Of a stretch of 64,000 nucleotides of DNA, positions 20,949 through 24,493 are shown piece by piece; position 1 is the stretch's first letter, and every line of letters starts with the position of its first letter. Under the pieces are notes generated by a model, which saw only the letters and a list, made by a program, of their open reading frames with translations, did no database searches and was not told the origin of the DNA. Source of the stretch: Candidatus Hydrogenedentota bacterium (GTDB lineage: Bacteria; Hydrogenedentota; Hydrogenedentia; Hydrogenedentales; CAITNO01). The DNA is taken from NCBI GenBank assembly GCA_012523015.1, contig JAAYJI010000005.1, forward strand, positions 871 to 64,870, given 5' to 3'. Position numbers and translations under genes: made by a program.

Positions 20949-22403
20949 TTAACGGAATTGGATGGCATATAGATCGGCGTCTTTCAAGACAAGGTGCAGG
21001 CGTATGGGCGTGCCCGCCAAGGCACGGATATCCTCCTTGTCTTGCCAGGCTATGGGTTGATCCACCATATTGCCAATAATTTCCGGGCAATCGTCTAAGC
21101 CGTAGCCGTCAATGGCTGAACCGTCCTCATGGAGCAATGCCACGCGGATGGATCCGGCGGCGGATGTGCTGAAATTCATATAGAGTGCCGTTCCCGTAAA
21201 AAGTAGGGGTTTCGTGGTCATACTTCCGCCGTCATAGCCGGCGCGTAGGCTCACAAAACCATCGGGCCGCATGCTGTAACGATCAAGCCTCGCCGTCGGC
21301 TGCCCGTAATTGTGCTGGATATAAAAGGACATTTCAGTCTCACCCGTAGGAACAATACCCCAAGCGGGATAGTTGGTTCGTGAGGTCCAATTTTCCAAAC
21401 CGATGCCGGGCCGTATGAAGCCTTCCATAAAAGTGCGTGTGTAGTGATTGCCGCCGCGGCTCGTGATTAGCACATTATCGGAACAGTCCTTGTAGTACCC
21501 CTCCTCAATGCCCAGCTTGCGTGCTGCCTCTTCCGATACCACGCGCCGTCCCGGCATGAAGCGTGCCGCCAAGGAAACATAAATATGGGGAGCACGATAG
21601 TAAGCGAGGGTCTGGTTCGTATAGAGTTCTTCGGGAGGACGGTCACCTGCATCCATCACGACAGGTGCGCTCCAATGCCTGAAATCGGGAGAGGTGCAGC
21701 GGCTGACCCAACGATAGCCCTTGTAATCGCCTTCCGACCAGCTCCGGAAATAACAGACATAACAGGATTCTGATTCCGACCAAAACGCCACGTTCTGAGA
21801 ATCAAAAGCGCCTTCCGTGATCATAGCTTCTTCCGTTTTATGCCACCGGAAGCCGTCTTCCGAAGCGAAACCACTGAGTCCTGTTGAAGAAGTGCCTGCC
21901 AGCGCGAGATAGCGTTCCTCCGCCGGTGCTCCGGGGCGTATATTAAGAAAGGGACTGAAGTTGTGGGAGTAGGGTGCATGCCCCGCCAAAACCACATTAT
22001 TTTCGCTGCTGTTCCGCACGGTAAAGAGTTTCAGCTTCGGTTTATTCCAAAGGATGCCGTCGCTGCTTTCCGCGTAACAGGTGACCTCATTTTGAGAGCC
22101 GTCCTTGCCCGCTTCCGGTAAGCCTCGATAATACATGCGGTAAAGGCGCTGCCCATCATCCCAAAATACCGTAACGTAGCCGCAATAGCGTCCTTCCCAA
22201 GCTTCATCAAAGAGCAGTGCAGTGCCTTTATGTTCCGGCACCCCCATAACGAGCTGTGTCCCTTCCATGGCGTCGATTAGAAAATCGTCGACGAAGAGTT
22301 CCCGTTTGGAAGCAATGTCAAGAGGAGAAGCGAAAGCCTGCGTCCCCAATGCGATACACAGCAACAGTCCCACTATCTCCCAAAAAGCTGAAAATAAGCG
22401 CAT
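20949..22403 (-). CDS. Secreted glycoside-hydrolase-like protein (five-bladed beta-propeller type, GH43/GH32/GH117-like); exact family uncertain.
   Basis: N-terminal signal peptide (LLLCIALGTQAFA); aromatic/acidic-rich repeated blades (W..D.G..Y.Y.. patterns) typical of propeller glycosidases. Confidence 0.45.
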   Translation of the reverse strand: MRLFSAFWEIVGLLLCIALGTQAFASPLDIASKRELFVDDFLIDAMEGTQLVMGVPEHKGTALLFDEAWEGRYCGYVTVFWDDGQRLYRMYYRGLPEAGKDGSQNEVTCYAESSDGILWNKPKLKLFTVRNSSENNVVLAGHAPYSHNFSPFLNIRPGAPAEERYLALAGTSSTGLSGFASEDGFRWHKTEEAMITEGAFDSQNVAFWSESESCYVCYFRSWSEGDYKGYRWVSRCTSPDFRHWSAPVVMDAGDRPPEELYTNQTLAYYRAPHIYVSLAARFMPGRRVVSEEAARKLGIEEGYYKDCSDNVLITSRGGNHYTRTFMEGFIRPGIGLENWTSRTNYPAWGIVPTGETEMSFYIQHNYGQPTARLDRYSMRPDGFVSLRAGYDGGSMTTKPLLFTGTALYMNFSTSAAGSIRVALLHEDGSAIDGYGLDDCPEIIGNMVDQPIAWQDKEDIRALAGTPIRLHLVLKDADLYAIQFR

Positions 22404-22521: not shown

Positions 22522-23310
22522 TCAGCCTTCGAAATGATGATCCATTTCGAGGGAGGGCTGCGCAAAGGATTCTTTGCCGATGGGATGGGCGGGTATGCCT
22601 GCCACCGTGGTGTGGGGCGGCACATCTTCTAATACGACGGCGCCGGCAGCGATCTTAGCGCCCTCGCCAATTTCGATATTGCCCAGTACTTTTGCACCTG
22701 TGGAAATCAAGACACCTCGGCGCACTTTCGGATGGCGGTCGCCTTGTTCTTTGCCTGTTCCGCCTAAGGTCACCCCATGGAGCATGGACACGTTTTCACC
22801 CACTACGGCGGTCTCGCCGATGACAACGCCTGTGGCATGATCGATAAAGCAGCCTTTGCCCAATTGCGCCGCAGGGTGGGCGTCAACACCAAACATTTCA
22901 GAGATACGGCTTTGCAGAAACAACGCTAAATGAATGCGTTCTTTATGCCAATAATAATGGGCGATACGCTGGGCTTGAATCGATAAAAACCCCTTAAAGT
23001 ATAAGAGCGGCTGTGAATATTTGCGGCACGCCGGGTCACGGCCGTAGACTGCCAATAAATCTGCTCGGGCGAATTGACCCAATTGTTGTTCTGCGTCATA
23101 GGCCTCTTCGATTAGGTCGCGAAGAGACAGTGCAGGCAAAGTGGCGCTTTCCAATTTGCTTGCCAATTGAAAGCCTAAAGCGTCTTCAAAGGTTTTATGA
23201 TTGAGGATGGTAGTGTGCAAAAAGCTCGCCAATAATGGTTCACGCCAAGCGCCTTCTGTTGCTTCAGCACGAATTTGTTCCCACAAACTATCGGGGGTAA
23301 CCGTTTCCAT
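22522..23310 (-). CDS. cysE: Serine O-acetyltransferase.
   Basis: N-terminal SATase helical domain plus a left-handed beta-helix with hexapeptide repeats (GVDAHPAAQLGKGCFIDHATGVVIGETAVVGENVSMLHGVTLGG...), characteristic of CysE. Confidence 0.9.
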   Translation of the reverse strand: METVTPDSLWEQIRAEATEGAWREPLLASFLHTTILNHKTFEDALGFQLASKLESATLPALSLRDLIEEAYDAEQQLGQFARADLLAVYGRDPACRKYSQPLLYFKGFLSIQAQRIAHYYWHKERIHLALFLQSRISEMFGVDAHPAAQLGKGCFIDHATGVVIGETAVVGENVSMLHGVTLGGTGKEQGDRHPKVRRGVLISTGAKVLGNIEIGEGAKIAAGAVVLEDVPPHTTVAGIPAHPIGKESFAQPSLEMDHHFEG

Positions 23311-23521
23311 AAAATGTATAATAATCCTTTATAAGCTAGTCTGCTTCAATTCAATCAGAGGGGATCGGGAGGGCTCCGAGCACAAGCCTGTTTTAGACAA
23401 GGCGAAACGCTCCGGTCATGAACCGCTTTTTGTGCCGCTATGGATCAGGCGGCAACAGTGCGGACGCCGCCGCTGCCCGGCAGCGGTCGCAAGGAGCCTT
23501 TGCAATGAGCCCCTTGGGTAC

Positions 23522-23836
23522 TCAAGCACCTTTCTCTGAGTCGGGAGCCTTAGCAACTGTACTTTTCGCCTTGGCTTTTGGCTTCGCTTTTGCCTTTGGT
23601 TTTGCCTTGGCTTTGGCAGGCGCTTTCACACGTTTGGGCAAAGAAACATAAAAGGTTTTGAGCAGTTCCAGAAGTTCCCCCAGACACAGACGCAATTCTT
23701 CGTCGTCGTTAATGCCCAGCGCAGCAGCGGCATCACAAAATTGTTGCCATTTCTCGTGATCCCACATCCCTTTGTTTTTTACGACAAAATTACTTGCGAG
23801 TTTTGCCAGTTGTTCAATCGTGTACGGTTCGGCCAT
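23522..23836 (-). CDS. Small basic protein with a histone-H1-like Lys/Ala/Pro-rich C-terminal tail; hypothetical nucleoid-associated or DNA-binding protein.
   Basis: 104 aa: an N-terminal 65-aa helical acidic domain followed by KRVKAPAKAKAKPKAKAKPKAKAKSTVAKAP. The DNA shows the matching GCC/TTT/GGC periodicity. Co-directional with and 211 nt upstream of cysE. Confidence 0.5.
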   Translation of the reverse strand: MAEPYTIEQLAKLASNFVVKNKGMWDHEKWQQFCDAAAALGINDDEELRLCLGELLELLKTFYVSLPKRVKAPAKAKAKPKAKAKPKAKAKSTVAKAPDSEKGA

Positions 23837-24493
23837 GTATAGGGCTCCTTTTATTTTGGGCAGGCGAAGCGATTACCTCATAGCGGTAAAAGACCTGTCC
23901 ACATACAATTCTTAAACACATTTAAATGTATTCATAGTCACTATTATACACTATGCAGAATTTCCAAGTTTGGGCAAGGGTCAGTCTCTCCAGGTCGGGA
24001 TAACATTAGGGCGAGGAATACTGTGTTTTCCTCGGTGTAACCTTTTGATTCGAAACAATAGCCTATGCGTGTTATAGCAGCAAATATTCCTATATAAGAA
24101 ACACACGGAGGAATTCTTATTATTCCGTATATATACAGCGTCCTTCCGTCGGAATGCAACGACCGCTACCGTACTGCAAATTTTTTCAAATAATCTTTTC
24201 ATAAAATGTCTATCATTCTAATTATCTTGATATGATCATAAAAAGGCTTTTACCGGCAGCGGAGGACACAAAAATACCCGGATGATCTATCCTAACGATA
24301 GAAATACTTATGTGGATTGGGATTTTGAAGATACTTAGGTGCACGACACGGAGGTTGCTGTTAATGGTGGTTATCCCTATTTGAAAACACTCCCGCCCAT
24401 ACCGGAAAATAAGACGAAATAGAAAATACAGTCCCCTGCAGCCGATGCTGCAGGACTCATGCTAAGAGCGTATCCGCTCCAAGGGAAAATAAA

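What the first reader, a model, noticed from the sequence alone, without database searches (positions are those of the whole stretch)
23522..23836. Small histone-H1-like (KAKP-repeat tail) protein upstream of cysE
The 104-aa protein is an acidic helical N-domain followed by KRVKAPAKAKAKPKAKAKPKAKAKSTVAKAP. That tail composition is nearly identical to eukaryotic H1 C-terminal tails and to bacterial histone-like proteins such as chlamydial Hc1, Bordetella BpH1 and AlgP. Such proteins compact DNA and act as global regulators. The N-terminal domain (WDHEKWQQFCDAAAALGINDDEELRLCLGELLELL) is not a recognisable HU/H-NS fold, so this may be an unclassified nucleoid protein. Its co-orientation with cysE is unexplained.
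Basis: partly seen in the sequence, partly recalled or inferred. Interest (0 to 1): 0.5.

Follow-up and report, generated by a model that had tools for sequence, protein, structure and literature searches.

The report
Small protein with histone-H1-like tail
A real, conserved 104-residue protein of an uncultured Hydrogenedentes bacterium joins a previously undescribed three-helix domain to a lysine/alanine/proline tail like that of histone H1, so it probably sticks to DNA or another polyanion, though that is untested.

Summary
Window 23522..23836 (-) encodes a 104-aa protein with the quoted N-terminal sequence and KAKP tail. It has a strong Shine-Dalgarno site and lies 211 nt upstream of co-oriented cysE.

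The gene is real:
- An exhaustive search found 143 cluster representatives.
- Invariant residues are F17, W25, H27, W30, G53 and E57.
- dN/dS is about 0.07-0.08 between orthologues.

The N-terminal 65 residues fold confidently as an acidic three-helix bundle. They match no Pfam, NCBIfam, PHROG or PDB family, and no solved fold specifically. This 'GxWxHxxWE' module occurs in 1-5 tandem copies. It also sits behind REC-GGDEF and TPR regions, or ahead of helix-hairpin-helix domains.

The basic tail is kept in orthologues and in 48 of 62 single-domain relatives, so it is not an artefact.

Best reading: a two-part adaptor or nucleoid-associated protein. The tail would bind DNA or a polyanion non-specifically, and the folded module would mediate protein interactions, as in AlgP, PhaF and PhaM. 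It is not homologous to H1, Hc1, HU or H-NS.

cysE linkage is kept in four lineages, two of them named Hydrogenedentes. It is absent in the six other family lineages examined. Function is inferred, not shown.

The parts
23522..23836 (-). Complete CDS of the 104-aa protein (stop codon TGA at 23522..23524)
   Evidence: called gene on at least 21 contigs; 143 relatives; purifying selection.
23639..23836 (-). Residues 1-66: an acidic three-helix module (helices 4-20, 27-39, 46-65) carrying the family motif F17, G23, W25, H27, W30, E31, G41, G53, E57, Y63
   Evidence: AlphaFold2 with a 29-sequence alignment gives pLDDT 91-96 over residues 11-60. Conservation was measured over 232 domain instances. 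The head carries net charge -5.
23525..23638 (-). Residues 67-104: a disordered Lys/Ala/Pro-rich tail (PKRVKAPAKAKAKPKAKAKPKAKAKSTVAKAPDSEKGA), net charge +12
   Evidence: One search gives the sequence. pLDDT is 51-70 with no secondary structure. Orthologues keep comparable tails.
23562..23614 (-). Imperfect 12-nt (four-codon) tandem repeat, 4.3 copies, that encodes the AKAK/PKAK core of the tail
   Evidence: Tandem Repeats Finder: period 12, 80% matches, score 69.
23845..23850 (-). Shine-Dalgarno sequence AAGGAG, 8 nt upstream of the ATG
   Evidence: Read directly. Orthologues also carry GGAGG or AGGAG before their ATG (alignment A5).
23465..23486 (-). G+C-rich hairpin (CCGCUGCC...GGCAGCGG) about 40 nt after the stop codon, with no U-tract. 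It may be a terminator or a processing site; its status is uncertain
   Evidence: RNA fold of the spacer. The terminator scan did not call it. Orthologue spacers contain G+C-rich, partly palindromic stretches by eye, but no conserved structure was found.
22522..23310 (-). cysE (serine O-acetyltransferase), 211 nt downstream on the same strand. The pairing is kept in four related lineages (two named Hydrogenedentes)
   Evidence: Searches identify it. The same small-gene-then-cysE order is seen in L015, L016, L020 and L021. The cysE proteins of the window, L015 and L016 carry Hydrogenedentes names.

Best explanation
The gene encodes a small cytoplasmic two-part protein.

The C-terminal 38 residues are an intrinsically disordered polycationic Lys/Ala/Pro tail. 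It would bind a polyanion electrostatically and without sequence specificity. The most likely target is nucleoid DNA; polyphosphate or RNA are alternatives.

The N-terminal 65 residues are an acidic three-helix module of a previously uncatalogued family with the motif GxWxHxxWE...G...LGxxLExxKxxY. This module would not bind DNA itself. It would act as a protein-protein interaction or self-association unit.

Together they would work as a nucleoid-associated adaptor or bridging protein, in the manner of AlgP, PhaF and PhaM, where one end holds DNA and the other holds a partner.

Shown here: the gene is real and conserved; the fold; the charge separation; conservation of the tail; the modularity of the domain.

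Inferred: binding to DNA or another polyanion; the interaction role of the module; any effect on chromosome structure or gene expression.
For: 1. The tail is a conserved trait, not noise. Of 62 single-domain relatives (<=130 aa), 48 have a tail of at least 15 aa with net charge of at least +5. Median tail charge is +7 and median head charge is -3. The Hydrogenedentes orthologues all keep it while their repeat sequence differs.

2. The tail is predicted disordered, and the head is a confident three-helix bundle.

3. Three family representatives (P0009, P0022, P0044) carry a helix-hairpin-helix domain (HHH_5, E 4e-6 to 3e-5) after two modules and a tail. [quoted passage not shown] In those proteins that end binds DNA non-specifically and the N-terminal end binds the cargo (PMC13052382).

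4. The KPAA-repeat C-terminal domain of AlgP binds DNA in vitro and is needed for polyphosphate-granule spacing (PMC9239181).

5. The module itself is acidic in 75% of 232 instances. It occurs as 3-5 tandem copies without a tail, and C-terminal to REC-GGDEF and TPR regions. This fits an interaction module and not a DNA-binding fold.

6. In most lineages the gene stands alone with varied neighbours. It has a strong Shine-Dalgarno site and a long AT-rich upstream region. This layout is compatible with an independently expressed gene.
Against: No binding experiment exists for any member of this family.

The tail is short: 38 aa, against 154 aa of repeats in AlgP.

Lysine-rich disordered tails also occur on ribosome- and RNA-associated proteins, so DNA is not the only candidate ligand.

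No partner of the module has been identified. No conserved neighbour gives a hint beyond cysE in one clade.

The family search used the full protein, tail included, so it may over-represent tailed members.
Confidence: 0.5

Rival explanations
1. It is a classical abundant chromatin protein. The protein would coat and compact DNA and act as a global regulator like chlamydial Hc1, with the head domain simply dimerising it.
For: The tail has H1-like composition. The gene is small and stands alone, with a strong Shine-Dalgarno site. It is conserved across several Hydrogenedentes lineages. No paralogue lies in the 64-kb window.
Against: There is no homology to Hc1, Hc2, the linker-histone globular domain, HU or H-NS. 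The same head module occurs in multi-copy arrays and on signalling proteins without a basic tail, which a dedicated chromatin fold would not be expected to do. Abundance and compaction are untested.
Confidence: 0.2
2. It is an RNA- or ribosome-associated factor. The basic tail would bind rRNA or mRNA, and the head would dock on a translation component.
For: Lys/Ala/Pro-rich disordered extensions are common on ribosomal and RNA-binding proteins (general knowledge). In one other lineage (L013, L022) the gene sits two genes upstream of a SUI1-family translation factor, and in L013 it is near RsfS and GatCAB.
Against: That context is confined to one lineage. Elsewhere the neighbours are unrelated: cysE, ferrochelatase, Fur/ferritin, glycosyltransferases. 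The helix-hairpin-helix fusions point to DNA. No Rfam element or ribosomal gene lies nearby.
Confidence: 0.12
3. It has a role specific to cysE or sulfur metabolism. The small protein would be co-transcribed with cysE and regulate it, or sense cysteine or redox state through the Cys34 that is invariant in this clade.
For: The small-gene-then-cysE order is kept in four lineages at 41-64% identity, although both outer flanks differ in L016. The cysE proteins of the window, L015 and L016 carry Hydrogenedentes names. Cys34 is invariant in the seven closest relatives, whereas the family consensus is Leu (59%).
Against: The six other family lineages examined lack cysE nearby. P0036 also has Cys at that position but sits next to Fur, ferritin and AhpC. 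The spacers are 134-298 nt with no conserved sequence or structure and no Rfam hit. The head is not a recognisable sequence-specific DNA-binding domain.
Confidence: 0.08
4. It is a spurious ORF or a low-complexity artefact that is not translated.
For: The gene is short, has a repetitive 3' half, and matches no database family.
Against: There are 143 relatives with invariant residues. dN/dS is well below 1 with saturated synonymous sites. The start (MA...) and Shine-Dalgarno site are conserved. The fold prediction is confident. The artefact is the antisense ORF 23418..23651 (+), not this one.
Confidence: 0.02

Closest known systems
AlgP (AlgR3) of Pseudomonas aeruginosa and the related C-terminal domain of the phasin PhaF
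   Same: Both have an alpha-helical N-terminal part followed by a disordered Lys/Ala/Pro tandem-repeat tail encoded by short DNA repeats. In AlgP and PhaF the tail binds DNA non-specifically, and the protein tethers granules to the nucleoid (PMC9239181; PMC13052382).
   Different: AlgP has 154 aa of KPAA repeats and a 124-aa N-terminal domain. Here the tail is 38 aa of AKAK/PKAK units and the head is a 65-aa three-helix module. No sequence relationship was detected, since no Pfam or PDB hit was found. No granule association is known.
PhaM (Cupriavidus necator) and PhaH (Caulobacter): PHB-granule-to-nucleoid tethers
   Same: They share the two-part logic of a cargo-binding N-terminus plus a non-specific DNA-binding C-terminus. 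That C-terminus is a histone-like tail in PhaM and a helix-hairpin-helix domain in PhaH. The present family shows the same two alternatives: tails in most members, and a tail plus HHH_5 in P0009, P0022 and P0044.
   Different: The N-terminal module is unrelated by every search run here. No PHA genes were seen next to any family member examined.
Chlamydial histone-like proteins Hc1 and Hc2, and Bordetella BpH1
   Same: They are small bacterial proteins with lysine- and alanine-rich, H1-like regions that bind and condense DNA (general knowledge; PMC2848022 abstract).
   Different: At E<=1 no Pfam model was hit, so the Hc1 and HC2 models did not match. The head fold and motif are different. Condensation is untested here.
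Eukaryotic linker histone H1 (C-terminal domain)
   Same: The tail composition (K, A, P), its disorder and its positive charge are alike.
   Different: H1 is defined by a winged-helix globular domain. That domain is absent here: there is no Linker_histone hit, and the model is three helices with no beta wing. The likeness is compositional and probably convergent.
DdbA of Streptomyces (H1-like domain fused to a DksA-like domain)
   Same: It is another case of an H1-like basic low-complexity DNA-binding region attached to an unrelated folded domain (PMC3643593 abstract).
   Different: The order is reversed, with the H1-like part N-terminal, and the partner domain is different.

Membership tests
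Eukaryotic linker histone H1/H5 | Winged-helix globular domain (Pfam Linker_histone) | tested here: not met
   hmmscan against Pfam at E<=1 gave no family. The AlphaFold2 model has three helices and no beta hairpin.
Eukaryotic linker histone H1/H5 | Disordered Lys/Ala/Pro-rich C-terminal tail | tested here: met
   Residues 67-104 have 37% K+R, 42% A+P and net charge +12. pLDDT is 51-70 with no secondary structure.
Chlamydial Hc1 / Hc2 | Sequence homology to the Pfam Hc1 or HC2 models | tested here: not met
   The Pfam scan at E<=1 returned nothing. HMMER's bias filters may suppress purely compositional matches.
AlgP / PhaF KPAA-repeat proteins | Long tandem array of KPAA-type four-residue repeats at the C-terminus | tested here: inconclusive
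   A four-codon (12-nt) repeat is present, but only 4.3 copies with AKAK/PKAK units. AlgP has 25 perfect KPAA repeats plus variants within its 154-aa repeat region.
AlgP / PhaF KPAA-repeat proteins | Homologous N-terminal domain | not tested
   No AlgP or PhaF sequence was compared directly. No Pfam or NCBIfam family was hit by the query.
AlgP / PhaF / PhaM functional class (nucleoid tethers) | Non-specific DNA binding by the basic C-terminus, and cargo binding by the N-terminus | not testable with these tools
   This needs gel-shift assays, localisation and pull-downs.
HU/IHF and H-NS nucleoid proteins | Bac_DNA_binding or H-NS domain | tested here: not met
   No Pfam or NCBIfam hit. No PDB sequence hit.
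Homeodomain-like / helix-turn-helix three-helix DNA-binding folds | Specific structural match together with a basic recognition helix | tested here: inconclusive
Unnamed 'GxWxHxxWE' three-helix module family (defined here) | About 56-aa module with F17, G23, W25, H27, W30, G41, G53, E57, Y63 | tested here: met
   The window protein has all of these residues. Their frequencies are 78-97% over 232 domain instances. The HMM score of the window protein is 71 bits.

The most novel reading that the evidence does not exclude
The GxWxHxxWE three-helix module is a new, widely scattered bacterial docking domain that gathers proteins onto a common polyanionic scaffold, either the nucleoid or polyphosphate. 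The short tailed forms, such as this Hydrogenedentes protein, would be the scaffold anchors. The tail-less multi-copy forms and the REC-GGDEF fusions would be clients that dock on them through module-module contacts, so that c-di-GMP synthesis and other activities become spatially organised on the chromosome. In the Hydrogenedentes clade, the invariant Cys34 and the fixed position before cysE might add thiol or cysteine sensing.
Probability: 0.12. Interest if true: 0.65.

Novelty: new variant of a known kind. Interest (0 to 1): 0.42.

Why it matters
Almost nothing is known about chromosome organisation in candidate phyla such as Hydrogenedentota. This gene is a concrete, cheaply testable candidate for a nucleoid- or polyanion-binding protein there.

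It also exposes a folded domain family that is missing from Pfam, NCBIfam and the PDB. The family has at least 143 clusters at 50% identity, including members named as Hydrogenedentota and Nitrospirota. Its fusions to histone-like tails, helix-hairpin-helix domains, diguanylate cyclases and TPR proteins suggest a reusable docking module.

The finding adds another independent case of an H1-like Lys/Ala/Pro tail attached to an unrelated bacterial domain. That bears on whether such tails are convergent and on the proposed bacterial origin of the H1 tail.

It does not overturn anything. Bacterial proteins with H1-like tails are well documented.

Tried and rejected
- **Family libraries.** Pfam, NCBIfam, PHROGs and PADLOC scans of the protein and of family members gave no credible family. 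Scattered weak hits (HTH_91, HA, Cas4, DotZ, TPR_Sec16) were inconsistent between members and were rejected.
- **PDB by sequence.** Neither the single sequence nor the 73-sequence domain profile found anything below E 0.5.
- **Word-indexed homologue search.** The N-terminal 70 aa found nothing. The domain profile found only 2 proteins. The tailed profile found 28, all unnamed or called 'hypothetical'.
- **Genome-collection scan.** It was swamped by the AKAKAKPK pattern and gave one unnamed MAG. The 50-sequence alignment was too divergent to use.
- **Regulatory RNA between the small gene and cysE.** Rfam gave nothing. RNAalifold over five spacers gave -1.8 kcal/mol and no covariation. The single-sequence fold z-score was -2.1, which is not compelling.
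- **Promoter and terminator scan.** No minus-strand promoter or terminator was called for this gene.
- **Paralogues.** None in the 64-kb window. The rest of the genome could not be searched.
- **Magnetosome, PHA or polyphosphate gene neighbourhoods.** None was seen in any context examined.
- **Taxonomy of most other family members.** It could not be obtained.

Full report
**1. Observation**

The window contains one ORF at exactly 23522..23836 on the minus strand (ATG start, TGA stop, 104 aa). AAGGAG lies 8 nt upstream of the ATG. The next gene on the same strand, 22522..23310 and 211 nt downstream, is serine O-acetyltransferase cysE. It hits SATase_N at 1.5e-38 and TIGR01172 at 224.6 bits against a cut-off of 210.65.

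Upstream lies a 657-bp intergenic region of 37-42% G+C against roughly 50% elsewhere. It is shared with a divergent 691-aa beta-helix protein.

The plus-strand ORF 23418..23651 (…FALAFGFAFAFGFALALAG…) is the mirror image of the repeat and is not a gene.

**2. Source organism**

The cysE and DinB proteins of the window are identical to NCBI entries named 'Candidatus Hydrogenedentes/Hydrogenedentota bacterium'. The exact 104-aa protein is a called gene on at least 21 contigs of up to 154 kb from ENA, JGI and Logan metagenome assemblies. All show the same neighbourhood.

**3. Is it a real protein?**

Yes.
- An exhaustive phmmer scan of 1.84 billion cluster representatives returned 143 proteins at E<=1e-3 and 41 at E<=1e-10. 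The best has 64% identity (P0001, 108 aa).
- In an alignment of 50 short relatives, F17, W25, H27, W30, G53 and E57 are invariant.
- Over the first 66 codons, orthologues from four other contigs show saturated synonymous change with dN of 0.14-0.56. Examples are L015 against L019 (dN 0.137, dS 1.90) and the window against L019 (dN 0.28, dS 3.45).
- The start (MA…) and a Shine-Dalgarno site are conserved.

The 'untranslated ORF' refutation is therefore very unlikely.

**4. The tail**

Residues 67-104 are 37% K+R and 42% A+P, with net charge +12. AlphaFold2 predicts them to be disordered (pLDDT 51-70, no secondary structure). They are encoded by an imperfect 12-nt repeat of 4.3 copies.

The tail is not absent from orthologues. 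L015, L016, L019 and L020 all have a K/A/P-rich tail whose exact repeats differ. Among 62 single-domain relatives of at most 130 aa, 48 have a tail of at least 15 aa with net charge of at least +5 (median +7), while the head is net negative in 50 (median -3). One caveat applies: the family was gathered with the full-length query, which may favour tailed members.

**5. The head**

With a 29-sequence alignment, AlphaFold2 gives a three-helix bundle (helices 4-20, 27-39 and 46-65) with pLDDT 91-96 over residues 11-60.

No match was found by any of these searches:
- Pfam, NCBIfam, PHROGs or PADLOC.
- PDB sequences, with the single protein or with a 73-sequence domain profile.
- Any consistent Pfam family across 73 domain instances.

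**6. The family**

A local HMM iteration defined 232 instances of a module of about 56 aa. Its consensus is …F-V-x-x-Q-K-G-x-W-D-H-x-x-W-E-x-F-L…G…L-G-x-x-L-E-x-x-K-x-x-Y. Residue frequencies are F 96%, W 97%, W 97%, G 89%, H 78%, E 86% and Y 81%.

The architectures seen are:
- one module plus a basic tail (about 60 representatives, including the window protein);
- two modules, with or without long K/E/P-rich tails (64 representatives);
- three to five modules with essentially no tail (P0002, P0008, P0050, P0081…);
- two modules at the C-terminus of REC-GGDEF or REC-GAF-GGDEF proteins (P0032, P0111, P0136);
- four modules after a TPR region (P0013);
- three modules before a membrane region (P0073);
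- two modules plus a tail plus a helix-hairpin-helix domain (P0009, P0022, P0044; HHH_5 at E 4e-6 to 3e-5).

No source gives any member a name other than 'hypothetical protein'. One two-module member is from a Nitrospirota MAG.

**7. Genomic context**

In four lineages at 41-64% identity to the window protein, the order small gene then cysE is kept. These are L015 (spacer 298 nt), L016 (172 nt), and L020 and L021 (134-161 nt, where the downstream ORF begins MDSPKRDILWEQIRSEAAEGAWREP…). In L016 both outer flanks differ. The cysE proteins of L015 and L016 carry Hydrogenedentes names; L020 and L021 have no taxon name.

Other family lineages have quite different neighbours:
- a stand-alone gene between a 988-aa protein and a radical-SAM gene (P0145);
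- ferrochelatase and galactokinase (P0108);
- Rce1-like, then the small gene, then GFO_IDH_MocA, then SUI1, in two related contigs (P0163 and P0132);
- glycosyltransferases (P0153);
- AsnB, then the small gene, then Fur, ferritin and AhpC (P0036);
- a REC-PAS-GGDEF neighbour (P0157).

The spacers before cysE share no sequence or structure. RNAalifold gives -1.8 kcal/mol, and Rfam finds nothing. The cysE link is therefore a clade-specific synteny. It may reflect co-transcription or mere inheritance, and it is not a property of the family. No paralogue lies in the window.

**8. Mechanism**

The best-supported reading is a two-part adaptor or nucleoid-associated protein. The polycationic disordered tail would bind DNA, or another polyanion, without sequence specificity. 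The acidic three-helix module would mediate protein contacts.

The strongest indirect argument is the family's own alternation between a histone-like tail and a helix-hairpin-helix domain at the C-terminal end. [quoted passage not shown] In addition, the KPAA domain of AlgP is documented to bind DNA (PMC9239181). The occurrence of the module in tail-less arrays and on diguanylate cyclases argues that the module is not itself the nucleic-acid-binding part.

All binding and cellular roles are inferred. The rivals considered are a classical compacting chromatin protein, an RNA or ribosome factor, a cysE- or thiol-linked role, and a spurious ORF. They are weighed in the Rival explanations section of this report.

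**9. Comparison and novelty**

The protein works like the class of bacterial proteins with H1-like tails (AlgP, PhaF, PhaM, Hc1, BpH1, DdbA). It is not a member of any of their families. The winged helix of H1 and the Hc1, HC2, HU and H-NS domains were tested and not found. The tail resemblance is compositional.

What is new is the head domain family and its architectures. I rate this a new variant of a known kind and of moderate interest. It is a tractable lead for chromatin biology in an uncultured phylum and an uncatalogued domain worth a Pfam entry, but it is not a surprise in kind.

Noticed in passing
window 23418..23651 (+): A 77-aa ORF lies antisense to the tail (…ATVLFALAFGFAFAFGFALALAGAF…). 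It is the reverse-complement reading of the AKAKPK repeat codons and looks like a hydrophobic peptide, but it is an artefact of the repeat.
   Followed up: partly
window 23837..24493: An unusually long (657 bp) intergenic region of 37-42% G+C, against about 50% in the flanking genes, lies between the small gene and the divergent 691-aa beta-helix (Pel9A/GH141-like) gene. It contains a perfect TATAAT about 95 nt upstream of the ATG but no scored sigma-70 promoter on the minus strand. L019 also has a 515-bp upstream gap.
   Followed up: partly
window 20949..22403 (-): A 484-aa secreted-looking protein with no Pfam hit lies directly downstream of cysE. It is conserved in the same position in L015 (482 aa), so cysE and this gene travel together in two species.
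   Followed up: no
residue 34 of the protein (window 23735..23737, -): Cys34 is invariant in the seven closest relatives (the cysE-linked clade), whereas the family consensus at this position is Leu (59%), Val or Ile. P0036, P0084 and P0129 also have Cys there, and P0036 sits beside Fur, ferritin and AhpC. A thiol or redox role is conceivable but untested.
   Followed up: partly
family members P0032, P0111, P0136 (not in the window): Response-regulator diguanylate cyclases (REC-GGDEF and REC-GAF-GGDEF) end in two copies of the same three-helix module. This suggests the module docks signalling enzymes onto something.
   Followed up: partly
family members P0018, P0038, P0127 (not in the window): These one- or two-module proteins (P0127 has one module, P0018 and P0038 two) share a further conserved C-terminal region of about 80 aa (…RLTKKxLMELxEGxFLVSxxxxDxxxNPxFxxEV…REExW…NQRxCxxF…) that has no Pfam hit. 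It is possibly another uncatalogued domain.
   Followed up: no
L013 6001-6327 and L022 5001-5357: In another lineage the homologue is embedded in a conserved run: Rce1-like protease, then the small gene, then a GFO_IDH_MocA oxidoreductase, then a SUI1-family translation factor. L022 also has ParA and bactofilin genes nearby.
   Followed up: partly
tool behaviour: The exact 104-aa sequence was reported as 'not in the collection' by the cluster look-up, yet the contig look-up found it as a called gene in 36 blocks. The word-indexed search likewise missed the 64%-identical P0001. Negative results from the word-indexed tools are therefore unreliable for this low-complexity protein.
   Followed up: no
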